From: Cyanidioschyzon merolae
Taxonomy: Eukaryota
Reading direction: 5' to 3' (one strand)
DNA: 64,000 nucleotides
Assembly (NCBI GenBank): GCA_000091205.1
Contig: AP006483.2
Under the pieces are notes generated by a model. The model ran no database searches. It was not told the DNA's origin and saw nothing but the letters and a program-made list of their open reading frames with translations. The translations under genes were made by a program, and so were the position numbers. Below, piece by piece: positions 28,555-45,661 of the stretch (positions are counted from its first letter, which is position 1; each line of letters begins with the position of its first letter).

Positions 28555-30924
28555 ATGACAGCTAGAAACACATTTGTTGCCGGTAACGCTCCAGGAGCAG
28601 TTGCGTTTATCGCCAGTGTCCGTCTTGGAGGACTTTCGGCGAGGTCAAGTTCTTCCGTCTGTCGCTCAGTCAAGGCGCGGTCGTTCGGTATGGGGCGCAC
28701 TTCGGTGGCTATCCAGCCGAAACCAGTCTTGTCGGCTCATAAGTCGGGACGGAACACGGGGCTGCTGCGAATGAGCGCGGCAGAAGCGACACAAAACAAG
28801 GAAACTTACGAGTTTCAGGCCGAGGTTTCACGGGTGATGGATATCATCGTGAACTCTCTGTATTCGAATACGGACATTTTTCTCCGAGAACTTATATCAA
28901 ATGCCTCGGACGCTTGTGATAAGAAGCGTTTCTTGAAACTCACCGGAAAGTCCGATGCAGGAGACTCGCTTTCGGATACAGAGGAGCTTGCTATTCGTGT
29001 GAAATGCGACGAGAAAGAGCGGACCATTAGTATAACGGACAACGGCATAGGGATGACGAAATCCGAACTAATCAATAATCTTGGCAAAATAGCGGCCTCA
29101 GGGACAGCCAAGTTTGTTGAGGCTCTGAAAGAAGGCGCAGCAGACCTCAGCCTCATTGGACGATTTGGTGTTGGCTTTTACTCTGCGTTTCTAGTGGCGG
29201 ATCGGGTCACCGTGCACACCAAGTCGCCGAACGACCAAAAAGCTTGGAGATGGGAGTCCGAACAAACCAAAAACTTTACGATTACTGAAGAATCCGACCC
29301 GCGGAGTTTTCTGCCTGAAGGCGCAACCAGCGGCACAACCGTAACGCTGCACATCAAAGAAGGTATGGAGAAATACCTTAACGACTTCAGCCTCCGTCAG
29401 CTCCTGGAGTTGTACTCAGAATTTGTGTCATTTCCGATTTACCTCTGGATGAGTCGAATCGAGTACGACAAAGTGAAGGAGAAGGATGAGAAAACTGGTG
29501 AAGAGAAAGAAAAGAGTGTACCGCGTACAGTCTACAATTGGGAATTGGTTAACAAGACGAAACCGATCTGGATGCGAAAGCCATCAGAAGTCACCGATGA
29601 TGAGTACAACGAGTTCTACAAATCGATCAGTCGTGACTTTGAAGATCCCTTAGCTCGCACGCATTTTTCCGCGGAGGGAGAGGTAGAGTTTCGCAGCATT
29701 CTCTTCACGCCGCGGCGGCTGCCCTTCGAATTAGCACAGAACATGTTCAGTGAAGCTGCGCGCCCGCTGAAGCTTTACGTGAAACGTGTTTTCATTTCGG
29801 ACAAATTCGATGAGTTGATCCCACGCTGGCTGACCTTTATCCGTGGTGTCGTTGACAGCGAAGACCTACCTCTGAATGTGTCCCGTGAGATCCTCCAGCA
29901 GAGCAAGGTAGCGCGCGTAATTGGACGACGTGTGACTCGCAAAGCGATCGACATGTTCAGGGAAATTGCCGAGCGCAGCAACCCGAAGGATTATGAGACA
30001 CTATGGGAAAATTTTGGTCGGTACTTGAAAGTCGGTGCCTTCGAGGATAATGAATGGTCGAAGGACCTGCGCCCGCTGCTTCGTTTCCATTCGTCCAAGA
30101 GCGGGGACAAGTGGGTCAGCTTCGATGAATACATTGGCCGTATGAAGGAGTCGCAGAACAAACGCATATTTTACCTCGCGGCGGAGAATCGGCTCGCTGC
30201 GATGAATTCTCCGCTGTTGGAGCGTCTGAAGAAGAAAGATTACGAGGTTATCTTCCTGCTTGAGCCGGTCGATGAATTAGTTTTCCAGCAACTGAACGGC
30301 AAGTATGGAGATGGCTACACTTTAGTGGATGTTGCAAAATCTGACCTCGAGCTTGACTCAGAGGCGGAGGATTCGAAAGAGGACAGCAGCCAGACACAAG
30401 CGTTGTCAGAAGCTGAACTCGAACCGCTGTGCAAGTGGCTTGGCGAGCTTTTCAAGGAACATGTTGAGAAGGTGAAGGTCTCGAAGCGGCTGACGGATTC
30501 GCCCATGGCCATCTCACAGAGCACCTACGGAATGTCGCCAATGCTGGAGCGATTCATGCGGACGCAGGCCGCTATGTTGAAGGAGGACATTCCACCAGGT
30601 TTCGAACAGAAGAGGATCATAGAAATTAATCCTGCGCATCCAGTGATCCACCAAATGGCGTCGCAACTGCGCAACTCTGGCGAAGCAGACAGCGAAGCTG
30701 CAACCTTACTCTATGAAACCGCCCTGCTTCAGAGTGGATATAACATTCGCGATTATGGCGGCTTCGCGCGACGCGTGACCAAGTATTTGCAGAGCTCTTT
30801 GTTGAATAATTTGAATACGACTGGTGGTGGGGACAATGCTAATGCGAACGGTGACGCATCAAGTGGTGAGAGCAAAGCAGAGGCCGTCGAAGCGGAAGTG
30901 GTCGGCGATGCAGCGAACCCATGA
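28555..30924 (+). CDS. HSP90C: HSP90 family chaperone, plastid (HSP90C)-type, with an N-terminal transit peptide.
   Basis: The ATG at 28555 was verified. The sequence ETYEFQAEVSRVMDIIVNSLYSNTDIFLRELISNASDACDKKRF matches the HSP90 N-domain, and VSRxxDxIV is HSP90C-like. GxGxG-type GVGFYSAF is present, and a charged linker is present. There is no MEEVD and no KDEL/HDEL at the C-terminus (it ends GDAANP). There is an N-terminal presequence of about 75 aa (MTARNTFVAGNAP...) with Phe near the N-terminus. Confidence 0.9.
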   Translation: MTARNTFVAGNAPGAVAFIASVRLGGLSARSSSSVCRSVKARSFGMGRTSVAIQPKPVLSAHKSGRNTGLLRMSAAEATQNKETYEFQAEVSRVMDIIVNSLYSNTDIFLRELISNASDACDKKRFLKLTGKSDAGDSLSDTEELAIRVKCDEKERTISITDNGIGMTKSELINNLGKIAASGTAKFVEALKEGAADLSLIGRFGVGFYSAFLVADRVTVHTKSPNDQKAWRWESEQTKNFTITEESDPRSFLPEGATSGTTVTLHIKEGMEKYLNDFSLRQLLELYSEFVSFPIYLWMSRIEYDKVKEKDEKTGEEKEKSVPRTVYNWELVNKTKPIWMRKPSEVTDDEYNEFYKSISRDFEDPLARTHFSAEGEVEFRSILFTPRRLPFELAQNMFSEAARPLKLYVKRVFISDKFDELIPRWLTFIRGVVDSEDLPLNVSREILQQSKVARVIGRRVTRKAIDMFREIAERSNPKDYETLWENFGRYLKVGAFEDNEWSKDLRPLLRFHSSKSGDKWVSFDEYIGRMKESQNKRIFYLAAENRLAAMNSPLLERLKKKDYEVIFLLEPVDELVFQQLNGKYGDGYTLVDVAKSDLELDSEAEDSKEDSSQTQALSEAELEPLCKWLGELFKEHVEKVKVSKRLTDSPMAISQSTYGMSPMLERFMRTQAAMLKEDIPPGFEQKRIIEINPAHPVIHQMASQLRNSGEADSEAATLLYETALLQSGYNIRDYGGFARRVTKYLQSSLLNNLNTTGGGDNANANGDASSGESKAEAVEAEVVGDAANP

Positions 30925-31433
30925 CGCGCATGGTTCTCCGCTCGACCCTGTGGCATTGTCCGTATGGTTGGGTTCTTTGGTCCGTCGAATTCGCATCTAG
31001 CGTGGACCCTGTGACAGGGATTCCTCTTTTCTAAACCTGAGTATTCATGAACGCGGCTTGTCGCGGAACCTTGAAGAGGAAATGTGGGAGCTTTCGGGCG
31101 AGCAACTCGGGAGTAACGCTTTCAGGGGCGATATTGCGAACGCTGTAGGATTGCTAAACTGAACTGAATTTTGCCGCACGGGCGATAGTTGCTGCTGATG
31201 AGACATGAGACAACATAAAGATCTGGGCATCCAGATTTCAAAAGGGTGCCTCTCATGATTTTCAACAGTCCGGTCACAGCGCGCTCGAACTGTACCCTTC
31301 CAGCGTTCGAATACTGGTGAGCTGTGGATGTTAGCAAGATTCAGCATGCTGGACACCAGTTACGATTCGGCAGAAATTCAAGTGATCCTGTCCAGCTATA
31401 TGCTGTTGTACCCAAGTCTGACTGACATGGAGC

Positions 31434-32309
31434 GGTCTACTTGGCTACCTCGGGCGTATACTCTAAACATTGGGCGTCTCCCCAGTGTCACCAACACAAG
31501 CCGTTGTGAGCCTTTTCTGAAACTGCATCGCTTCTCGTTCTCATCTCTCGCTTTAAGCACGCCGGCTTCTAAAGTCCCTTCCGCTCTATCGCCAGCATTC
31601 GAAGGGTGATGATCGCGGCGTGATAACCCCGATTAACCTGTTTCCTGATGTCTTCTGTGCTTTTTATGCACAGGCAAAAGTTGCGATCTAAACATCACTG
31701 GCAACTACTCCCTTTCGTGCGTTCGGCCTGGATGCGCACTCCGCAATGGTATCACCGGGCTGTGACGGGGGTTTCTCAAACGTCCACAACTCTTCCTTTT
31801 CAGCGCACCGCCATGTCGAGCGTGAACGCGTGCTTCATGGCTCTATTGCATGCCCTTGACGGGTACAGAAGGCTATCGTCGATGCCCTGCTCCGGTTTTG
31901 CCCCAATTAGAGTGTCCAACGAGTACGGGCGTCTTTCTAGGCGATAGCCTCGGCGAGTGCATTGTCTGTTGCACACGCAAGCGCAAGCTGTTCCGTGCGA
32001 CGGAGTTTCGCGCACTTGATGTTTCCCATGATTACATTGGTACTGGATGAGCAATCCAGACTGGAGACCAAGTTGCGCGATTTTGATTTTTCTACGACCC
32101 CTCATGTGAAGCGGTGACGCACATTGCGTGGTGAAGCGATTGGTGCGGTGACTGAAGTTCTAGACCAAGACTGTCTTCCATCGAACCAGAAGATATGAGC
32201 GCGCCTGGGAGCATGCCCTGTGGGAAGTATCAAGTCGGCGCTGAATACTGGTGCATGGATGTCCGCCAAAAGAAGAGGACTAGTCTCTCAAATGGAACTG
32301 CTTATTTGA
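31434..32309. repeat. Repeat family R1, copy A (876 bp). It is ~99% identical to 41170-42045 and in direct orientation.
   Basis: The track ORFs 31648..31947 and 41384..41683 encode identical 99-aa products. 31800..32105 and 41536..41841 differ by one residue. The nucleotide alignment shows only a few mismatches. Identity drops abruptly at both ends. The element lies 500 bp downstream of HSP90C. Confidence 0.9.
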
Positions 32310-34511
32310 CAAGTTCCGTGAACGCTCGGCATGGGCCTGTAAAACAGTCTTCAGTCTAGCGACTTGAAAGCAGTCTTCACAAGTAGCCTTAAATGTGCAA
32401 GATCCAAAACCTGACGTATACATTATTTCAGCGTGCTACACGCAAGTAGAGGAGAAGTACAGATTGTTGTACATAAGAAGTCGATAGTTATTTTGAGTGT
32501 GTTACCCAATCTTTTCCGAGAAAGTCGCGAGTCATCATGATTCGAACGATGTAACGAGTTCGGAGGCTAACGAGTTGGATGAGCCACTGCAAAAAAAAGA
32601 CCGAAAAAAGTAAACCTATGCACGAGTCCGTAAGCCCTAGTTGCTGCATTTTGGATGCCGAGGCTGTATATCTCACAAAAAGTTTGGAGAATTATCGAAA
32701 TGCAGGAACAGATAGAGCTGTCCATTGTACAATTTTTATTTGGCATGGGTGTACCAGTAGTTGGCGTAAAGACGAGATTTCCCGTCCTACTGGACGACGT
32801 TGGCTGCGTCTGAGATGGAAGGTTTCGGAGTCTGGCTTTAAGAATGAATGCACGAGAATCTGGCGCTTCTTGAGCGAGAGTGTCTTAAGGCGCAACGAGT
32901 CCACAATGAACTCGAATCGTATGCCCATTCGCACGCATGCAAGCAATGAAACGTCCGTCATTGGCACGACTTCAGCATCCATTAGCATTCCTAAGGCGTT
33001 TCAGGTTGTCGATGATCAGTGTAGCATCTCCGATATTGAGAACCTCTCAGAGCGACATTATCCGAAAGATCTCCAGCGGGCGCCCTGTATTATACCGTAG
33101 AGCTGGTCAACCTCCGTGCTGTAACTGCACCGACGCCATGAGTGCTATCGCGGACGCTCAGGGCAAGCTCCATGCACGATAGAACGTGGAAGATAACCAG
33201 TATCTCCGAGAAAAAGAATGTCTATTGGGACATGGCAACAGGTTGAACGATGGATGCTTCACCGCGCCCTGAGATCGAGGGCGTAATCGGAGATTCGTGG
33301 CCTATGTAATCGAGCTGTAAAAATCAGTTGGCAGGTATGATCCAATAATGCACTATTTAGAAGCGGTGTAGGCATTCAACAGAAAAGGTCTCCTCGATGA
33401 CAGTCCACGAGAAGTTCTATAGCTCGACGACGCAAATGCTTCAGAGCCGTGCGAATATGGCTCTCCTTCCACAGGCCTTTCCATGCTGGAATGCCCTATG
33501 CGAGAAAAATTAAGCGAATCTACCGTTGTCGCAGATCCGATGCTTCTTGCACAGCGGACTTTGCTCGATATGTGCATGCGCCTCGCTCCTGGTTTACTTG
33601 AATATACATTGAAACGAGTAATGCACATGGCAAACGATTTTCGCGTGCATGAACAGCACTTTGCACGTCTTGCGAAGCCAATTCTTATTGAGGATCGCTG
33701 AGCGCCGCGAGCAAACCATGTCGAAATCCGTAAAATGATTCCGTACGATTGGACGCTTCCTAACTGCCGAGAGCAATCGCAAAATCGGAGGAATCATATC
33801 AGATTCATCGATGATGTATGATGAAAACGATAGAATGCGTTCGCCAGCATGGGAGCGATTGCCCGGAAGCATGCCATGTCTTTGAGTGATCTCATTGAAC
33901 CGGAGACCTCAGCTTTCTAGGCTCGGGGTTCACGCACATGGTCGCGGTTGAGTTACCTGAACAATTCCAGCAGATAAGTACAATTGTCTCTACTTCCAGT
34001 CCGGAAGGAAAGGATGATTCGAGGCAGGCGTGTAGAATAGAAAATCTCGATTGATTCAGTCAAGGGCTATTGGTACTATTCGTGACAAATCCACAACATC
34101 AGCCAGCACGATAGCTCGAGCGGAGCGATGCTAAGGTCGCTTGTAACAAGTCCGCAAATTTGAGACACTCGATCATTCCAGCTGGAAAAAAACTCGGATT
34201 ATTCCCATGTGACCCGTAGCATAGAGCAGCTCCGTCGTTCCAGTAGGGGAAGCCTTGCAATGCTCGTACGAAGCCCGCAGCATAGAGCCGCTCTGCCCAA
34301 CTTGGTTGTTCTAGCTTTAAACGAAAGAAACGGCGCCCCTGGCTATGCATGCCGTGTTGCAGCGGACAGGATGATGAAAATCCTCTTAATGAAGGCAACA
34401 TATGCTCCACAAGATTGTTCCCCTGAAATTGCACAGCACCTTATGTGCGCCCTACGACTGATGCTACACCTGAACTGCTCGTAGATCTTGCCACCTCTTC
34501 GAGACCGCAGT

Positions 34512-36488
34512 CTATTTGAAGTTGGCGGATCTAAGCCATCGATCGAGAAATGTCGCCGTCGTGGAGCTCCTGCTACTGGGAACCAGAGATGCTGCAGCAT
34601 TTGCATCTGAACAAGGTGCGGGCGCAGGCTTCGCGGAGACCCAGAGGCGAATGTCAAACTGCGCAGGAGCACAGGATCGGCCCCTGGGAAGAAGCGTTGA
34701 CCTCTGGCGTGCTAATTCCGTTGCACTATTCGAGTCGCCCATCAAAGGGTGGCCGCGTACAGGACCACCATCGCCGTCAGCGAGTATCGATGAATCGGTG
34801 TTCAATCGCGTTCGCTTCCCAGACGCATTTTCGTTTCGTATGAAAGCTTGGGCGAGCGGATCATTGTTTCCAAGGAGCATCCCGCATTTACTTGCGCACA
34901 TTGAACACACGTCCGGTCCTACGAGCGCATGCAAGCTTTCTGAGACTCGTCCAGGGGTGCTCCCAGTATTCTCAGGGAACCCAACGGCCTGTGAGCTGCG
35001 CTCATTGCAGACCGTTGCCGACTCTACGACGCTTATCCGTTCCGGTTCAGCAGCGGTTCCGAGGGGCGCAATAGGACCCCTCGGCAGCAGAAAGACAGCC
35101 TCGCACTGCCGCTCTCTCTCCATATCGAGCGCTGATTGAAGTAGCGAAGAAGGCTCGGTATGTCGATAAGAGATAAATTCCGAGAATCCAATGCCGACAA
35201 GCGTGCATCTTTGCTCAGTACAATCGTCCAGATTTTTCTGGAGAAGCTGCAGTGCCTGCGAGAAAAGTAGCCTCTGAGCTTGTTCTATAATGCCAAAGCT
35301 AGAGGTTGATACCAAACGCCTAATTGCAGCTTGCAGCGCTGAATGCATCCGGGTACTGCGAGAGCGTCGGCTTCCCTTACCAAGACGCCAGTATACCGCC
35401 ACTCGGCGTGGCAGCCGACCATACTGTTGGCCATGATGCTTCATTCTCGTTACACAAGCGAGCGCAAGTGCATACAGCTTCTCATGAAATGCCGCAGAGA
35501 AGAGCTCCAGTCCTGGGAAGGAATCCTCTACATGTATACGCTGAAGGGGACCTCGAGAATATACCTCCTCTGGGAAATCCCCTCGCGCTGCCAACCAAAT
35601 GTCTCGTGCTCGCTTCGCAAAGACTGCTGCAAACTTTCCGAATGTTTTTCGTATTGCATGTTCGAGCGTTAATGGAGAATCGAAACGCGTTCGGAGTTCT
35701 TTCACCGTTCGAACATGTAGCTCCTCCGAAAGCAGGCGTTCGAAGCGACGTCCCACGTATGGAAGCGATCGTAGCTCGAGTTCGGAGAGCCATGAGTCGG
35801 CCCTCACAGTGGGCACAAAGGTAGTTTGCCCATTCGGCTTATGCATATTCGCAGCAAACTTGGCGAGCATTTTGTTGAAACCCACCCCACAGGATATCGT
35901 TATTCCTGTTCGTTCGAACGCCGCATCCCGCATATTTTTGGCGATATCAGACCCAAGCGCAAGTCTGAGCTCTTCCTCGGGGCCTACGAGGCAAATATCA
36001 GGTTGCAAACTCTCGGGCATAAAGTCACGAGGAAAGACTGCGCCGACGTATTCGTTCAAAGGGCCTTTCTGGGCGCACTCTGCGTTCATGGAGCGGAGGC
36101 GTCGATCCACTACCGCGGTTAAATCAAAAATATATTCGTCTAAACCTACCGTTTCGCAACGATGCTCCCGACCCACTTCGTCGAGCGACCTCAGCTTTTC
36201 TTCGAGTGCTTCACAAATCCGCTCCTGGGCATCGCGATACGGTGTCAGGTCCTCTCCGCAAAAGAGGACGAGCTCTGGGCAGAGACGCTTCGCCTCGTCT
36301 ACTCTCATTAGTTTGCCAACACCGTATTTCCTAGCCTCATAGTTACAAGTCACCACAAGGTGTTTTTGGAAAACTGCAGCGGGCTTTGAACGGAGAGACT
36401 CGTCGCCAACTGCGTTCAACTCCACCTGACAGTAGAAATAGTCGGCGTCGAACACTGCAACGACTCGCGAGGCGTCAAGGTTAAACAT
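34512..36488 (-). CDS. Y-family DNA polymerase (UmuC/IMS domain), Pol iota-like, with a long low-complexity C-terminal tail.
   Basis: The ATG at 36488-36486 was verified. The N-terminus reads RVVAVFDADYFYCQVE ... QKHLVVTCNYEARKYGVGKLMRVDEAKRLCPELVLFCGEDLTPYRD. This is almost colinear with the Pol iota motif QKYLVVTCNYEARKLGVKKLMNVRDAKEKCPQLVLVNGEDLTRYRE. Pol eta instead has AVSYEARAFGV at the corresponding position. About 230 C-terminal residues are Ser/Ala/Pro/Arg-rich. Confidence 0.8.
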   Translation of the reverse strand: MFNLDASRVVAVFDADYFYCQVELNAVGDESLRSKPAAVFQKHLVVTCNYEARKYGVGKLMRVDEAKRLCPELVLFCGEDLTPYRDAQERICEALEEKLRSLDEVGREHRCETVGLDEYIFDLTAVVDRRLRSMNAECAQKGPLNEYVGAVFPRDFMPESLQPDICLVGPEEELRLALGSDIAKNMRDAAFERTGITISCGVGFNKMLAKFAANMHKPNGQTTFVPTVRADSWLSELELRSLPYVGRRFERLLSEELHVRTVKELRTRFDSPLTLEHAIRKTFGKFAAVFAKRARDIWLAARGDFPEEVYSRGPLQRIHVEDSFPGLELFSAAFHEKLYALALACVTRMKHHGQQYGRLPRRVAVYWRLGKGSRRSRSTRMHSALQAAIRRLVSTSSFGIIEQAQRLLFSQALQLLQKNLDDCTEQRCTLVGIGFSEFISYRHTEPSSLLQSALDMERERQCEAVFLLPRGPIAPLGTAAEPERISVVESATVCNERSSQAVGFPENTGSTPGRVSESLHALVGPDVCSMCASKCGMLLGNNDPLAQAFIRNENASGKRTRLNTDSSILADGDGGPVRGHPLMGDSNSATELARQRSTLLPRGRSCAPAQFDIRLWVSAKPAPAPCSDANAAASLVPSSRSSTTATFLDRWLRSANFK

Positions 36489-37561: not shown

Positions 37562-38670
37562 GGCACGGGGCGTTGAAACGGAGGAGGGTACCGTGGCGGG
37601 GCTTCTGCATATTTCAAGCGCGTGTACCGAGCGTTTTTGCAAGCGTTCATGCCCCGCAGGACGGAGTTCGTCGTGGGATGTGTGGTATACGAATTGGAAC
37701 ACTTGACTAAAGTCTAGCGTTCCAGCTAGGAGGAGCACACCCAGGCTACATACAAATGCGATGAAAATGGCGAGCGAAGTTTAGATCGCAACTGCCGTCT
37801 GTGCGGGAAATGCGCAGACAAGAGCAGGAAACTGCGTTTTTCCGACGTTAATGCTGCCGTCATCATCTTGAGAGTGTTGAAACCGGAGCTGGAAGAGAGG
37901 GTTAAACTGGCGTATTTTACGTCAAATACACGAGAGAGGAAACGGAATTAGAAGCAGAAAAATCCGCAAAGGCTCGCTCTGATGATATTAGGAAGAAACC
38001 GAAACATCAATGAGTATGCGCGATTTAACTGAGTGGACCCACTCCGTTTTAGTCTGACAGGATGCAACTGAAGACTCATCTACACATATCCTCACAACTG
38101 GGTCATTCTGGATGCGCGACAAGGAGCCGAAGCAACGGGGACTACGCTGCACCACCCTCTGCTGCAGGCTTTTGCGTACCAACGAGTCTACGATTAGTGC
38201 TCTTCTGAATATGCAGGCTTGCCGCATGGTTGTGTGACGATGAGCTCCAGAGCGCGAAACTCTGACAGCAACACACTCCAAAACACATTGAAGTGTCGTT
38301 TCTAAGCTGCAGGTCGCTGGGCTGGTTTCCTTTCCTCAGTGACAGGAAGAAGAGCACAAGTATTTGAAAACCTCCCTTGACGAAAGCATCATTTCGCTAC
38401 GTTCCACTCTGACGTTCTAGAAGCTGTCGAACACCTTCCGTGGGCAGTGCTTCTTCATACCTGAGGGGATAAGCTTCCCGGCGGCGGCCGACTGTTGGTG
38501 GTGGCTCGTGGAGAAGCTTGACGCACACGGGACAACGAACAATAAGCGGACTTCTGGAAAGATACTCTCCAGTGCCTTTTTGGGAATTTGCGAGTTTCTG
38601 TCTGCACTCTCGCACTGTCTGTGAACCGCAGGTGGAGGCAAGAGGTTGGCACCGGAGACGACGTGCGGCA

Positions 38671-39948
38671 ATGTCTCGTACTGACAACGTCGGCGTTTCC
38701 AGAACCCTGAACGCTGCACCGGTTGGAGCACCCAACGCTGCTATACCATCAATGCCTTTCGGTAACTTACTCCTTGTGGGGAGCTGCACTCTGCTCTTTT
38801 TATGCCAACAAGCGTTGCAAATACCGCTATCAGCAGTATGCATCGATCCGGAGCTGCAGATTTCCAGCAATACGTACCGCTTATTCACCGCTCCTTTTTT
38901 TCATGTGAACCTTGTTCACATCTTTGCGAATATGATTGTGCTGCTGGACATTGGGCCTCCGCTTGAACGCCGCCTTGGCTCCTTTCTCTTCCTATTCATT
39001 GTTTTTCTCATGATTTGCGTCTCTGGTGTTTTTAGAGCGATTTTGGCGATGTCTGTTCGGGTCGCCTTGACACCCTTCGAAATGTCGACTAGAGCGCCCC
39101 TGCTGCCGCTCCTTTCGTACATCCGTCGGCAGACGCACGCCTGTGCGGTGGGATTTTCGGGCGTGCTTTTCGCTTTCTTGGTGATCCACGTCCACCAGTT
39201 CGTCGCGACGGATATCCTATGGATACTGGGAGTCGTTCCATGTCCGTCACGCTTCTATCCTCTGGCATTGTTGGTACTACTTCAACTCATGGTTCCAGCT
39301 GTGGACCTTTGTGGTCATCTAGCAGGTATGCTGGTTGGTTACACTTACGTTCGAGGCTGGCTATGGCCGCTGCTTGTTCAACTCATACCGGGGGGGTTTA
39401 TACGGAACCTTGATGAAATACTTGGCTCCCGGATAACAGTCTGGGCAGCAAAGCCTTCCGATGAGGAAGGCAATATAATGCGGAGCAATAGGTTCCATCC
39501 GAGCACAACGGCAACCTCATTCTCATCTATGTTCGAAAATGGTGCAAGATTCTTCGAGTCGCTTCTCCGAAGAGTATTGCCGTCAAGGCGATCGAGCCAA
39601 ACGCGGATGCAGAACAATCTTGACGAGTCAGTTGAAAGCGGCATTGCAGCAGAGGTTAACACGGACCGTAACCAAGACGTTATTCTTTATGCTGATACGC
39701 ATGAAACGGAAACGCAAGCTCCAGTCGAGCAGCTCGTTCGAGCAGGGTACCAGCCGAATGATGCGTTCGAAGCGCTCGCGGAGGTACAAGGGGACGTAGT
39801 GGCGGCTAGGCTGATCATCGACACTCGGCTTACCGCACAGCTGGTCGAAATCGGGTTTGATTCGACAGATATTGAGCATGCGCTGCACTCAGGCTGCCCC
39901 AAAACCATCACTGCAATCGTTGAATGGATTAGTTCATTAGAGCATTGA
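38671..39948 (+). CDS. Rhomboid-family intramembrane serine protease with two C-terminal UBA domains (plant RBL15-like architecture).
   Basis: The rhomboid core is present: HVNLVHIFANM, catalytic GFSGVLFA (GxSG) and downstream CGHLAGMLVGY (the catalytic His). There are multiple TM helices. The C-terminal UBA-like segments are QLVRAGYQPNDAFEALAEVQGDVVAARLII and EIGFDSTDIEHALHSGCPKTITAIVEWI. The track start at 38518 is TTG; the first ATG is at 38671 (MSRTDNV...). Confidence 0.8.
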   Translation: MSRTDNVGVSRTLNAAPVGAPNAAIPSMPFGNLLLVGSCTLLFLCQQALQIPLSAVCIDPELQISSNTYRLFTAPFFHVNLVHIFANMIVLLDIGPPLERRLGSFLFLFIVFLMICVSGVFRAILAMSVRVALTPFEMSTRAPLLPLLSYIRRQTHACAVGFSGVLFAFLVIHVHQFVATDILWILGVVPCPSRFYPLALLVLLQLMVPAVDLCGHLAGMLVGYTYVRGWLWPLLVQLIPGGFIRNLDEILGSRITVWAAKPSDEEGNIMRSNRFHPSTTATSFSSMFENGARFFESLLRRVLPSRRSSQTRMQNNLDESVESGIAAEVNTDRNQDVILYADTHETETQAPVEQLVRAGYQPNDAFEALAEVQGDVVAARLIIDTRLTAQLVEIGFDSTDIEHALHSGCPKTITAIVEWISSLEH

Positions 39949-40021: not shown

Positions 40022-41017
40022 TCAAGTGCGAGAACTGGGCTGGACCTGGAAAAACGTACAGGCAGCCCACATTCCGAGTGTGACAAAGGCGCTGACCACA
40101 CTTGCAGGCTGTAACCATTCAGGCACTAGACCGACGGCGACTGCCTGCTCTATGTTGAACCAGCTGACGAGGGCGAACGCAAGGACGAAACCAATGCCTC
40201 CGAACATGAAAACGAGGCCCATCGTTTTCAGTGCTGCAGGTCTGTTAATGGGGCGCACCTCGCCAACGTTTCCAAATTCATCACGTCGAACCTCTGGTTG
40301 GCCTCTGTTGTATAAAAACGCCATGCTGGTGATGAAAGAGATCGGCAGCGAACTGGTCGCAAACCGTGGAATGAAAAATCCCAAAAGGCCAAGAATCGCC
40401 ATGATAATCGAAGTCTTTCGGAGGTACTGCTTCTCTGGCACTTTGAAGATTCCATAAAGAAGACCTCCAGGGCTAGTGAGCTGCCGACCAAGCCAGCTTG
40501 TCTTCCACCAGGGCTGCTTCCGCAGCCGCTTCTCCAGCGGTGACTCGCGCACTATACCCTCTAGTTTTCCTTGAAGACGGCGTCGGAGCTTATCGTCAAA
40601 TATCTTGTCCCGCAGCACCTCAAGCTTCGAAAGCTGCTTAAAATCGTCTGCGTACTTGATTTTCAGTTTCTCGAACGCTTCCTGGATTTCTTCGAAGGTC
40701 GCACTCTCAGAAACACCAAGTTCGCGATACGGATTCGTGCCGTCGCCGAAACCAGTGCCAGTCCGCCTGCGGCTGGAGCTCGAGCTGTCCCGCGTGGAAC
40801 GTCGAAAAAACCAAAATAGAGCTGTTAAAGCGAAAACTCCTTGAGTCGAACCCCCAGGCAGTTGTTTCTGCGGCCAAGCGCGCTGAGTATGAAATTTTCG
40901 CAAGAACCCGGAGCGTCGGCTGCTACCGAAAGTTCCAAGACAAATCCTCCTTTGTAAAAACCCAGGCCACCGTGCTGAGGTAGGAGAATTACTATGTGCA
41001 AAAGAAGCAGAAAACAT
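40022..41017 (-). CDS. Plastid J-like-domain membrane protein of the CPP1/CDF1 (DUF3353) type.
   Basis: The ATG at 41017-41015 was verified. The J-like domain NPYRELGVSESATFEEIQEAFEKLKIKYADD lacks the HPD tripeptide. It is followed by about four predicted TM helices (IIMAILGLLGFFIP..., LVFMFGGIGFVLAFALVSWF, VVSAFVTLGMWAA). The N-terminal ~90 aa are Ser/Arg-rich and presequence-like. Confidence 0.7.
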   Translation of the reverse strand: MFSASFAHSNSPTSARWPGFLQRRICLGTFGSSRRSGFLRKFHTQRAWPQKQLPGGSTQGVFALTALFWFFRRSTRDSSSSSRRRTGTGFGDGTNPYRELGVSESATFEEIQEAFEKLKIKYADDFKQLSKLEVLRDKIFDDKLRRRLQGKLEGIVRESPLEKRLRKQPWWKTSWLGRQLTSPGGLLYGIFKVPEKQYLRKTSIIMAILGLLGFFIPRFATSSLPISFITSMAFLYNRGQPEVRRDEFGNVGEVRPINRPAALKTMGLVFMFGGIGFVLAFALVSWFNIEQAVAVGLVPEWLQPASVVSAFVTLGMWAACTFFQVQPSSRT

Positions 41018-44791: not shown

Positions 44792-45661
44792 ATGAGATAC
44801 CTCTTTGCACCGTCTTGGAGTGTGGGACATGGTTGGACCGTGCAGACGCAGCAGCGCTTTCGAGGGTCTCCTTCAACAAAGAGCGGGACGCGGTGCGTGC
44901 CCGCGCCCCGGCGCTCTGCGAGGTTACGGAAGGCCGGGGAGCAGCGTGTGCGTAGGAAACGGTCCATGGGCCTTAAGTGTTTATTAGCTGGGCCAGACAC
45001 TGGTTTTTTTGGTATCGGGACATCTGAAGTGCTTGTCATTCTTCTCTGCGCTTGGCTCCTACTTGGCCCAAAAGGCACTTACGAAGCAGCCCGAAACCTT
45101 GGGAGTTTCATAGCGAATCTTCGTGAGGCAGCAAATCAAGCGCGGGAGCAGTTTATATCTGCTCTCGGAGAAGACTACGACAGCGCTCGTCGTGAGGTCG
45201 AAGGAATCAGGGACTCTTTCGTCGGGGCGCTATCAGGTGAGGTCGACGATTTTGACGGCGAGGCTGGTAAGAACTTAGCTGCTGCGACCGATGACAAGTC
45301 CACCGGAAAAGAGCGTGTTGGTCAAAGTCCGAGTTCGCCGCTAGATATTGCTACCTTTACGAGTCTGACTGGAGGGAAAGGGCGGTCCGAAGATGAAGCG
45401 AGAAGCTACTTTTTAGATGCTCTTCGAAGAGTGAATGATCCGAACCAGGTGCCACCGACATTCGCGAGCGAGCCTGCCAGTGCTGCGAAGGAAATCGAGT
45501 TGGATGGGCATTCTATCAGGGCCGAGCCTGAGGTTCGTGGACTAGAACGACTCACAACGGAGTCAGGGGCTCTCGATCTGCGAAAGCTTGAGCTACGTGT
45601 AGCTGCTCTAGAAGACGAGATTCTAGAGCTTAAGATGATCATCAGGGAGCGGCGGCAATAG
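44792..45661 (+). CDS. TatA/TatB-family protein (Hcf106/TatB-like) with an organellar presequence.
   Basis: The ATG at 44792 was verified. It opens with about 58 aa that are Arg/Ser-rich. Then comes MGLKCLLAGPDTGFFGIGTSEVLVILLCAWLLLGPKGTYEAARNLGSFIANLREAANQAREQF, which is the TatA/B TM helix plus hinge Gly/Pro plus amphipathic helix (compare FGIGxPELLVI..LLVFGPKKLPE). The long acidic/coiled C-terminal extension is typical of TatB/Hcf106. Confidence 0.7.
   Translation: MRYLFAPSWSVGHGWTVQTQQRFRGSPSTKSGTRCVPAPRRSARLRKAGEQRVRRKRSMGLKCLLAGPDTGFFGIGTSEVLVILLCAWLLLGPKGTYEAARNLGSFIANLREAANQAREQFISALGEDYDSARREVEGIRDSFVGALSGEVDDFDGEAGKNLAAATDDKSTGKERVGQSPSSPLDIATFTSLTGGKGRSEDEARSYFLDALRRVNDPNQVPPTFASEPASAAKEIELDGHSIRAEPEVRGLERLTTESGALDLRKLELRVAALEDEILELKMIIRERRQ

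What the first reader, a model, noticed from the sequence alone, without database searches (positions are those of the whole stretch)
34512..36488. Pol-iota-type Y-family polymerase in an apparently non-metazoan, plastid-bearing genome
The N-terminal motif block (QKHLVVTCNYEARKYGVGKLMRVDEAKRLCPELVLFCGEDLTPYRD) is nearly colinear with the animal Pol iota block. It is unlike the Pol eta equivalent (AVSYEARAFGV).

From what I recall, Pol iota is regarded mainly as an animal/opisthokont paralogue of Pol eta. A clear iota-like gene here would therefore be phylogenetically informative. It would indicate either an ancient origin of the eta/iota split or horizontal acquisition.

The ~230-aa disordered C-terminus could carry PIP/RIR/ubiquitin-binding motifs.
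Basis: partly seen in the sequence, partly recalled or inferred. Interest (0 to 1): 0.55.

Follow-up and report, generated by a model that had tools for sequence, protein, structure and literature searches.

The report
Red-alga DNA polymerase iota, already annotated
The ORF is a genuine DNA polymerase iota (a damage-bypass polymerase) of the red alga Cyanidioschyzon merolae, but GenBank already names it that and Pol iota is already known to occur patchily across eukaryotes, so the finding is correct but ordinary.

Summary
Window 34512-36488 (-) is an intact, intron-free 658-aa ORF with a Y-family polymerase core and a roughly 220-aa disordered tail.

It is 658/658 identical to C. merolae 10D XP_005535058.1/BAM78772.1, already named "DNA polymerase iota, RAD30". 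So the genome is indeed non-metazoan and plastid-bearing.

Several tests agree on the iota assignment:
- PDB sequence search: human Pol iota 141 bits, Pol eta 79 bits.
- Subfamily HMMs: iota 258-371 bits, eta 129 bits.
- Foldseek: the top 17 hits are all human Pol iota.
- Human iota's Gln59/Lys60/Leu62 pocket and Tyr39 steric gate are conserved.
- NJ bootstraps: iota clade 87-89%; grouping with eta 0%.

I also found a separate eta-type paralogue in C. merolae (XP_005537147.1), which falls inside the eta clade. The eta/iota split therefore predates the red alga/opisthokont divergence. The red-algal branch sits among non-opisthokont iota proteins, and the locus is syntenic in three cyanidialean genomes, so horizontal transfer is not supported.

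The tail has two conserved PIP-like motifs but no detectable UBM, UBZ or FF-type Rev1-interacting motif.

The parts
34512..36488 (-). Complete CDS (658 codons plus stop) of C. merolae DNA polymerase iota (Rad30B/POLI orthologue); no intron needed
   Evidence: The ORF is listed. It is 658/658 identical to XP_005535058.1 'DNA polymerase iota, RAD30'. N- and C-termini are colinear with the Cyanidiococcus and P0003 orthologues.
35169..36488 (-). Catalytic core, residues 1-440 (palm, fingers, thumb, little finger)
   Evidence: Pfam IMS covers residues 14-213, with a weak IMS_C hit at 318-439. AF2 pLDDT is above 90 across residues 1-440. Foldseek aligns about 435 columns to human Pol iota ternary complexes, with target TM-score 0.73-0.78.
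36231..36368 (-). It contains Q41/K42/L44 (human iota Q59/K60/L62 pocket), Y50/R53 (triphosphate binding) and K59.
   Evidence: Residue mapping is. The family-wide alignment shows the iota-type block without eta's insertion. The role of the pocket residues comes from PMC2790882.
36432..36449 (-). Motif I, residues 14-19 (DADYFY): catalytic Asp14 (human D34) and steric-gate Tyr19 (human Y39)
   Evidence: Mapping is. The residues are invariant in all three cyanidialean orthologues. The Tyr39 steric-gate role comes from PMC3979402.
36135..36140 (-). Catalytic Asp117-Glu118 (human iota D126-E127)
   Evidence: Mapping is. Both are invariant or nearly invariant across 48 iota-family proteins.
34515..35168 (-). 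Low-complexity, predicted-disordered C-terminal tail, residues 441-658
   Evidence: pLDDT is below 50 for residues 463-642. The tail is essentially unalignable among the cyanidialean orthologues except for two short motifs. It has no Pfam domain at E<=10 apart from one sub-threshold chance match (Molybdop_Fe4S4, E=0.057, below its cut-off).
34638..34661 (-). PIP-box-like motif 1, residues 610-617 (QFDIRLWV), matching Qxx[ILM]xx[aromatic][hydrophobic]
   Evidence: Regex hit. D612, I613, R614 and W616 are invariant in three otherwise divergent tails. AF2 predicts a short helix at 613-617.
34533..34550 (-). Extreme C-terminal PIP-like motif, residues 647-652 (FLDRWL)
   Evidence: It is invariant in all three cyanidialean orthologues. 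AF2 predicts a helix at 647-653 with higher pLDDT. The same [LIM][DE]x[FWY]Φ motif occurs in the last 25 residues of 31 of 181 iota-type proteins, against 0.7 expected by shuffling.

Best explanation
The gene encodes the Cyanidioschyzon merolae orthologue of DNA polymerase iota (Rad30B/POLI), a nuclear Y-family translesion-synthesis polymerase. It was inherited vertically from an eta/iota duplication that predates the divergence of red algae and opisthokonts.

Shown here:
- A complete four-domain Y-family core with the catalytic triad Asp14/Asp117/Glu118.
- The steric-gate residue Tyr19.
- The triphosphate-binding residues Tyr50/Arg53/Lys217.
- The iota-specific finger residues Gln41/Lys42/Leu44.

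Inferred:
- As in human Pol iota, these finger residues would hold the template sugar in a narrow pocket that disfavours Watson-Crick geometry. That would give Hoogsteen-type pairing and the template-dependent low fidelity typical of Pol iota.
- The enzyme would be brought to stalled forks by binding PCNA through two conserved PIP-like motifs in an otherwise disordered tail (QFDIRLWV, residues 610-617, and the C-terminal FLDRWL, residues 647-652).
- No recognisable ubiquitin-binding module was found. Its recruitment may therefore depend less on ubiquitinated PCNA than in animals, or it may use an undetected motif.
- There is no N-terminal extension ahead of the first core strand, so it is probably nuclear rather than organellar.
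For: - Identity: 658/658 to XP_005535058.1 'DNA polymerase iota, RAD30' of C. merolae 10D.
- Sequence affinity: PDB phmmer gives human iota 141.5 bits, human eta 79 bits and kappa 61 bits, and Rev1 is not among the best 60 chains. An animal-only iota HMM scores 258 bits, an all-iota HMM 371, eta 129 and DinB/kappa 135.
- Phylogeny (NJ, Kimura distances, 402-415 trimmed columns): the iota clade including the cyanidialean proteins is recovered in 266/300 and 173/200 bootstraps, and cyanidialean proteins plus eta in 0/300 and 0/200.
- Same-genome paralogue: C. merolae XP_005537147.1 (516 aa) falls in the eta clade in 181/200 bootstraps. It hits human eta best (145 bits against 98 for iota) and has Pfam POLH-Rev1_HhH.
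- Family size: an exhaustive HMM search finds 316 representative clusters at E<=1e-30, and nearly all of the top 150 carry the insertion-free QK...T.NY.AR block.
- Structure: the AF2 core is confident, and the 17 best Foldseek PDB hits are all human Pol iota.
- Residues: the mapping is, and the residue roles come from PMC2790882 and PMC3979402.
- Tail: the two motifs are conserved and predicted helical.
- Vertical inheritance: the TatA/CPP1-like/Rhomboid/iota/Hsp90 neighbourhood is shared by Cyanidiococcus and a third cyanidialean genome.
Against: - No biochemistry exists for this protein. Hoogsteen pairing, the T:G misinsertion signature and PCNA binding are inferred from conserved residues and motifs only.
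- The tree is neighbour-joining, not maximum likelihood. Eta sampling is thin (human, opossum, yeast, Leptomonas, C. merolae and six unlabelled metagenomic ORFs), and kappa and Rev1 are represented by one sequence each.
- Monophyly of eta plus iota together is only moderately supported (109/200).
- Foldseek separates iota from eta only modestly (target TM-score 0.73-0.78 against 0.66-0.72).
- Leu62 of the pocket is Val in the two other cyanidialean orthologues.
- The animal hallmarks UBM1/UBM2 and the FF-type Rev1-interacting motif are absent.
- The Pfam little-finger hit is below its gathering threshold (19.9 bits against 20.7), although the structural model covers that domain.
Confidence: 0.9

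Rival explanations
1. It is really the alga's Pol eta (Rad30A), as the 'RAD30' part of the database name might suggest, and only looks like iota.
For: Eta and iota are sister paralogues with the same fold, and Foldseek also gives strong hits to human Pol eta (E about 1e-28). The tail has an eta-style extreme C-terminal PIP-like motif.
Against: Cyanidialean proteins group with eta in 0/300 and 0/200 bootstraps. The eta HMM scores 129 bits against 258-371 for iota. The protein lacks eta's finger pattern Q[YW]..[IL]IAVSY and has Lys59 where eta has Arg61. C. merolae has a separate, clearly eta-type gene, XP_005537147.1.
Confidence: 0.03
2. The gene was acquired by horizontal transfer from an animal or other opisthokont.
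For: The highest-scoring named hits outside red algae include shark and ray Pol iota. The quoted motif is nearly identical to the animal one.
Against: Identity to animal iota is only about 30-40%. In both trees the cyanidialean branch sits with non-opisthokont iota-like proteins (an MMETSP transcript, a POLI-labelled EukProt transcript (Hpha), and a green-algal group), apart from the fungi-plus-animals group. The locus is syntenic in three cyanidialean genomes whose orthologues are only 41-43% identical, so the gene is old in this lineage. GC content of 0.53 matches the neighbourhood. Iota-type genes are widespread in Archaeplastida and protists (PMC8595933).
Confidence: 0.03
3. It is a decaying or non-catalytic relic, or has been repurposed (for example as a scaffold), rather than an active polymerase.
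For: POLI is lost repeatedly in many lineages (PMC8595933). The tail has lost any recognisable ubiquitin-binding module.
Against: The ORF is intact at 658 codons. Every catalytic, steric-gate and dNTP-binding residue is conserved. The core is conserved across three divergent cyanidialean species while the tail drifts, which indicates purifying selection on the core. The AF2 core is highly confident. Near-identical copies recur in many hot-spring metagenome contigs.
Confidence: 0.04

Closest known systems
Human DNA polymerase iota (POLI; PDB 2dpi, 2alz, 5kt5 and others)
   Same: It has the same four-domain Y-family core and is the best sequence and structure match in the PDB, with 40.6% identity over the aligned core. 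The catalytic Asp/Asp/Glu, the Tyr39 steric gate, the Gln59/Lys60/Leu62 template-sugar pocket, Tyr68/Arg71/Lys214 and Lys77 are all conserved. Both have a disordered C-terminal regulatory tail containing a PIP-type motif.
   Different: The algal protein has no UBM1/UBM2 (PF14377) and no FF-type Rev1-interacting motif. Its PIP-like motifs lie near or at the extreme C-terminus, whereas from my own knowledge the human PIP box lies directly after the little finger. It has small insertions in the palm region (residues about 100-110 and 140-170). No biochemical data exist for it.
Non-animal Pol iota orthologues described by Vaisman et al. 2021 (Thermomyces lanuginosus Pol iota; POLI in green algae, spikemoss, diatoms, Vitrella, Naegleria)
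   Same: They belong to the same clade of QK-type Rad30B proteins, which co-occur with a separate POLH in the same genome. The T. lanuginosus enzyme shows human-like, template-dependent low fidelity (PMC8595933 abstract), which supports extending the mechanism outside animals.
   Different: That paper does not mention red algae. Tail modules differ by lineage: Chlorokybus has a UBZ zinc finger (Pfam). By my reading of the sequences, with no domain search run, an ascomycete also has a UBZ-like zinc finger, a chytrid a UBM-like motif and one green-alga-like protein a RanBP2-type zinc finger. The cyanidialean proteins have none of these detectable.
DNA polymerase eta (Rad30A/POLH), including C. 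merolae XP_005537147.1
   Same: It is the sister paralogue, with the same fold and catalytic residues. Eta's extreme C-terminal PIP box resembles the algal FLDRWL motif (the eta PIP box is from my own knowledge).
   Different: The finger block differs: eta has Q[YW]..(insertion)[IL]IAVSY and Arg61, whereas this protein has QKHLVVTCNY and Lys59. Eta carries the POLH-Rev1_HhH thumb domain, and non-cyanidialean iota proteins carry the IMS_HHH_1 'Pol iota thumb' domain; the window protein itself shows neither at E<=0.1. The two fall in separate clades.

Membership tests
Y-family DNA polymerases | IMS/UmuC catalytic domain plus a little-finger (PAD) domain, with conserved acidic catalytic residues | tested here: met
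   PF00817 scores E=9.6e-35. The AF2 model aligns over about 435 columns, including the little finger, to Pol iota and eta crystal structures. D14/D117/E118 are conserved. The Pfam IMS_C hit alone is marginal (19.9 bits against a 20.7 cut-off).
DNA polymerase iota (Rad30B/POLI) | Phylogenetic placement in the Rad30B clade, separate from Rad30A (eta), DinB/kappa and Rev1 | tested here: met
   NJ bootstraps recover the iota clade with the cyanidialean proteins in 266/300 and 173/200 replicates, and with eta in 0. HMM scores are iota 258-371 bits, eta 129 and DinB/kappa 135. A maximum-likelihood tree was not available.
DNA polymerase iota (Rad30B/POLI) | Iota-type finger domain: the Gln59/Lys60/Leu62 pocket that narrows the active site, with no eta-type insertion | tested here: met
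   Q41/K42/L44 align to human Q59/K60/L62. The block has the same length as in all iota-type proteins. The residue roles come from PMC2790882.
DNA polymerase iota (Rad30B/POLI) | A distinct Pol eta paralogue in the same genome, so that 'iota' is not simply the lineage's only Rad30 | tested here: met
   C. merolae XP_005537147.1 (P0493) is eta-type by tree, PDB best hit and Pfam domain.
DNA polymerase iota (Rad30B/POLI) | Two ubiquitin-binding motifs (UBM, PF14377) in the C-terminal tail. This is an animal-type regulatory feature and is not universal in the clade. | tested here: not met
   No UBM or UBZ hit at E<=10 in the tails of the window protein or its two orthologues, while the controls (ray UBM 2.3e-8, Chlorokybus UBZ 1.6e-7) were detected in the same search. 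Regex scans were also negative.
DNA polymerase iota (Rad30B/POLI) | PCNA-interacting PIP box | tested here: inconclusive
   A canonical-pattern QFDIRLWV (610-617) and a terminal FLDRWL (647-652) are conserved and predicted helical. Binding to PCNA was not tested and cannot be tested here.
DNA polymerase iota (Rad30B/POLI) | Rev1-interacting region (FF motif) | tested here: not met
   There is no FF dipeptide anywhere in residues 439-658.
DNA polymerase iota (Rad30B/POLI) | Biochemical signature: Hoogsteen pairing, preferential dGTP insertion opposite template T, and stimulation by Mn2+ | not testable with these tools
   This needs purified enzyme. It is inferred only from conserved pocket residues and from the human-like behaviour of a fungal orthologue (PMC8595933).
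Rev1 | N-terminal BRCT domain and a Rev1-type long insert in the fingers; closest similarity to Rev1 cores | tested here: not met
   There is no BRCT domain in Pfam. Rev1 is absent from the best 60 PDB chains. Human Rev1 has a large insert at the finger block that this protein lacks, and it branches outside the eta-plus-iota group.

The most novel reading that the evidence does not exclude
Cyanidialean Pol iota may work without any ubiquitin-binding module, relying only on two PIP-like motifs. The extreme C-terminal [LM]-D-x-[FW]-Φ motif is shared by many non-animal iota proteins and resembles Pol eta's C-terminal PIP box. This would suggest that the ancestral Rad30 tail was eta-like, and that the UBM pair and relocated PIP box of animal Pol iota are later innovations. 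The red-algal enzyme, from an organism I recall growing at about 42-45 C and low pH, would then be a minimal, naturally heat-tolerant Pol iota for structural and mechanistic work.
Probability: 0.3. Interest if true: 0.35.

Novelty: already known. Interest (0 to 1): 0.15.

Why it matters
It matters little as a discovery. The gene is already labelled DNA polymerase iota in the C. merolae 10D genome, and published work has already concluded that POLI is ancient and patchily distributed across eukaryotes.

The modest added value:
- It explicitly confirms that a red alga has both Rad30A (eta) and Rad30B (iota). This adds Rhodophyta to the lineages supporting a pre-Archaeplastida/opisthokont duplication.
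- The regulatory tail of non-animal iota proteins is modular: UBM, UBZ, RanBP2-type finger, or none, plus a recurrent C-terminal PIP-like motif.
- C. merolae can be modified by homologous recombination (my own knowledge). Together with its minimal gene set, that makes it a possible system for asking what Pol iota is for, which is still an open question in animals.

Tried and rejected
- Homology search with the human Pol eta core returned only mammalian eta in the 120 rows listed, so it was of no use for eta diversity.
- I first read the second catalytic core of P0004 as eta-like. Searching with it found mostly bacterial Pol IV, and in the trees it branches at the base of eta plus iota. My early note was corrected.
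- An Arabidopsis POLH sequence recalled from memory failed the exact look-up and was not used. Human eta, yeast Rad30, human kappa and human Rev1 cores recalled from memory were each verified as exact against the PDB before use.
- The look-up of encoding contigs had no record for the window protein.
- Literature searches for Pol iota in red algae or C. merolae Y-family polymerases found nothing specific.
- Pfam at E<=10 and regex scans found no UBM, UBZ or RIR in the tail. The CxxCxxxC stretch at residues 528-535 (CSMCASKC) is not conserved in the orthologues, so I rejected it as a zinc finger.
- There are no tRNA or Rfam RNA genes anywhere in the window.
- Horizontal transfer, misnamed eta and pseudogene readings were considered and rejected (see rival explanations).
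Full report
**Observation.** The window contains an uninterrupted 658-codon ORF at exactly 34512..36488 on the minus strand. The ATG is the first start codon after an upstream stop. The quoted motif block is residues 41-86. Pfam assigns the impB/mucB/samB (IMS) catalytic domain to residues 14-213 (E=9.6e-35), with a marginal IMS_C little-finger hit at 318-439. NCBIfam gives only sub-threshold Pol IV hits.

**Whose gene it is.** The first homology search found a 98%-identical metagenomic protein. It also found full-length orthologues in Cyanidiococcus yangmingshanensis (43% identity) and a third cyanidialean genome (P0003), followed by Pol iota of animals, green algae, ferns and fungi. An exact-sequence look-up showed that the 90% cluster includes C. 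merolae 10D BAM78772.1/XP_005535058.1, named "DNA polymerase iota, RAD30". The window protein is 658/658 identical to it.

Neighbouring genes are Hsp90, a rhomboid protease, a CPP1-like POR chaperone, a Tat/Hcf106 component, an SMC-like ATPase and a Ski2-like helicase. These fit a nuclear chromosome of a plastid-bearing eukaryote.

**Is the iota label right?** Five lines of evidence say yes.
- PDB sequence search: human Pol iota scores 141.5 bits (E=2.8e-40, residues 6-361), human Pol eta 79 bits and kappa 61 bits, and Rev1 is not among the best 60 chains. For scale, human eta against human iota scores 135 bits.
- Subfamily HMMs I built: animal-only iota 258 bits, all-iota 371, eta 129, DinB/kappa 135.
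- Exhaustive profile search of 1.84 billion representatives: 316 clusters at E<=1e-30, and nearly all of the best 150 carry the insertion-free QK.[LIV].VT.NY.AR finger block. Eta proteins instead have Q[YW]..(WKGGG)[IL]IAVSY.
- Structure: AlphaFold2 gives a confident core (pLDDT above 90 for residues 1-440), and its 17 best Foldseek PDB matches are all human Pol iota (target TM-score 0.73-0.78, about 30% identity), ahead of Pol eta (0.66-0.72, about 22%).
- Phylogeny: neighbour-joining trees used references I verified as exact against the PDB (human eta, yeast Rad30, human kappa, human Rev1). The cyanidialean proteins fall inside the iota clade in 266/300 and 173/200 bootstraps, and with eta in none.

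**A second Rad30 paralogue in the same alga.** A metagenome scan with an eta alignment returned L021, a 74-kb contig with 52% GC that encodes an intron-free 516-aa eta-type protein. An exact look-up tied it (513/516 identical) to C. merolae XP_005537147.1, which lies on a different, 866,983-bp chromosome. Its thioredoxin-UBX neighbour is an exact C. merolae protein.

That protein hits human Pol eta best (145 bits, against 98 for iota) and has the POLH-Rev1_HhH domain. It falls in the eta clade in 181/200 bootstraps and is never sister to the window protein (0/200). C. merolae therefore has one eta and one iota, so the duplication predates the red alga/opisthokont split.

**Horizontal transfer or vertical descent?** In both trees the cyanidialean branch sits with non-opisthokont iota-type proteins, apart from the fungi-plus-animals group. 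The TatA / CPP1-like / Rhomboid / iota / Hsp90 neighbourhood is shared with Cyanidiococcus and the third cyanidialean genome, although the orthologues are only 41-43% identical. The gene's GC content matches its surroundings. Vertical descent is the supported reading.

**Mechanism.** Local alignment to human iota residues 26-340 maps the following residues:
- D34, D126 and E127 to D14, D117 and E118 (catalytic).
- Y39 to Y19 (steric gate).
- Q59, K60 and L62 to Q41, K42 and L44.
- Y68, R71 and K214 to Y50, R53 and K217.
- K77 to K59.

In human Pol iota, Gln59/Lys60/Leu62 hold the template sugar in a pocket that is too narrow for Watson-Crick geometry and favours Hoogsteen pairing (PMC2790882). 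Tyr39 is the steric gate, and Gln59 contacts the template T or the incoming dGTP (PMC3979402). A fungal orthologue behaves like the human enzyme (PMC8595933). I therefore infer, but have not shown, the same low-fidelity, template-dependent synthesis for this protein.

**The tail.** Residues 463-642 are predicted disordered. The tails of the three cyanidialean orthologues are unalignable except at two motifs:
- QFDIRLWV (610-617), which matches the canonical PIP pattern.
- FLDRWL (647-652), at the extreme C-terminus.

Both are predicted as short helices. A terminal [LIM][DE]x[FWY]Φ motif recurs in 31 of 181 iota-type proteins, against 0.7 expected by shuffling, and almost all of those are non-animal. 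No UBM, UBZ or FF-type Rev1-interacting motif was found, although ray UBM and Chlorokybus UBZ controls were detected in the same search. PCNA binding through the two motifs is my inference.

**Comparison with what is known, and novelty.** Vaisman et al. [quoted passage not shown] They list green algae, spikemoss, diatoms, Vitrella and Naegleria, and they argue that the POLH/POLI split predates fungi. Red algae are not mentioned, and I found no paper on the C. merolae enzyme.

The identification was correct, the ancient-split alternative is supported, and the gene was already annotated as Pol iota. I rate the finding as already known, with low interest. Its residual value lies in the red-algal eta/iota pair and in the tail that lacks any detectable ubiquitin-binding module.

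**Caveats.**
- The trees are distance-based, and eta, kappa and Rev1 sampling is thin.
- Monophyly of eta plus iota together is only moderately supported (109/200).
- All functional statements beyond residue conservation are inferences.

Noticed in passing
L021:2959-4509 (+); equivalent to C. merolae XP_005537147.1 (P0493), not in the window: C. merolae's second Rad30-family gene is labelled 'similar to DNA-damage-inducible protein P' (DinP/Pol IV-like) at NCBI. By tree, PDB best hit and the POLH-Rev1_HhH domain it is a Pol eta, and UniRef already calls it that. It ends in a PIP-like ...GCITCYFSQPK.
   Followed up: yes
P0004 (1024 aa), P0005 (644 aa); P0008 and P0283 on one 17,741-bp contig: Some unidentified eukaryotes have an iota-type core followed in the same polypeptide by a second, divergent Y-family core (SQFHGGGFVSVSYEAR) that branches at the base of eta plus iota. 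In another assembly the two are listed on a contig of the same length (17,741 bp), probably as neighbouring genes. This is either a natural two-polymerase fusion or a gene-model read-through.
   Followed up: partly
window 28555-30924 (+) and 30925-34511; compare L001 and L002: Hsp90 lies just past the 3' end of the Pol iota gene in all three cyanidialean genomes, but it is inverted in the window relative to the other two. The spacer is about 3.6 kb with no ORF longer than 173 aa and no Pfam hit, against about 1.5 kb in the others. Beyond Hsp90 the others have a condensin-2 SMC gene, whereas the window has a different set. This looks like a local rearrangement breakpoint.
   Followed up: partly
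P0017, P0078, P0082/P0084, P0083: The ubiquitin-binding module of iota-type polymerases differs by lineage. Chlorokybus has a UBZ zinc finger (Pfam hit). By my reading of the sequences alone, an ascomycete also has a UBZ-like finger, the chytrid Synchytrium a UBM-like motif, a GC-rich green-alga-like protein a RanBP2-type zinc finger, and the cyanidialean proteins nothing detectable. Most keep a basic stretch plus a [LM]-D-x-F-Φ motif at the extreme C-terminus.
   Followed up: partly
window 40022-41017 (-), 44792-45661 (+), 38518-39948 (+): A CPP1-like (chaperone of protochlorophyllide oxidoreductase) gene, a Tat/Hcf106-family gene and a rhomboid protease gene form a block next to the polymerase gene that is conserved across Cyanidiales. 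The first two are typical plastid-related nuclear genes.
   Followed up: partly
window 1-64000: There are no tRNA genes (ARAGORN) and no Rfam family at gathering threshold anywhere in the 64-kb window.
   Followed up: yes
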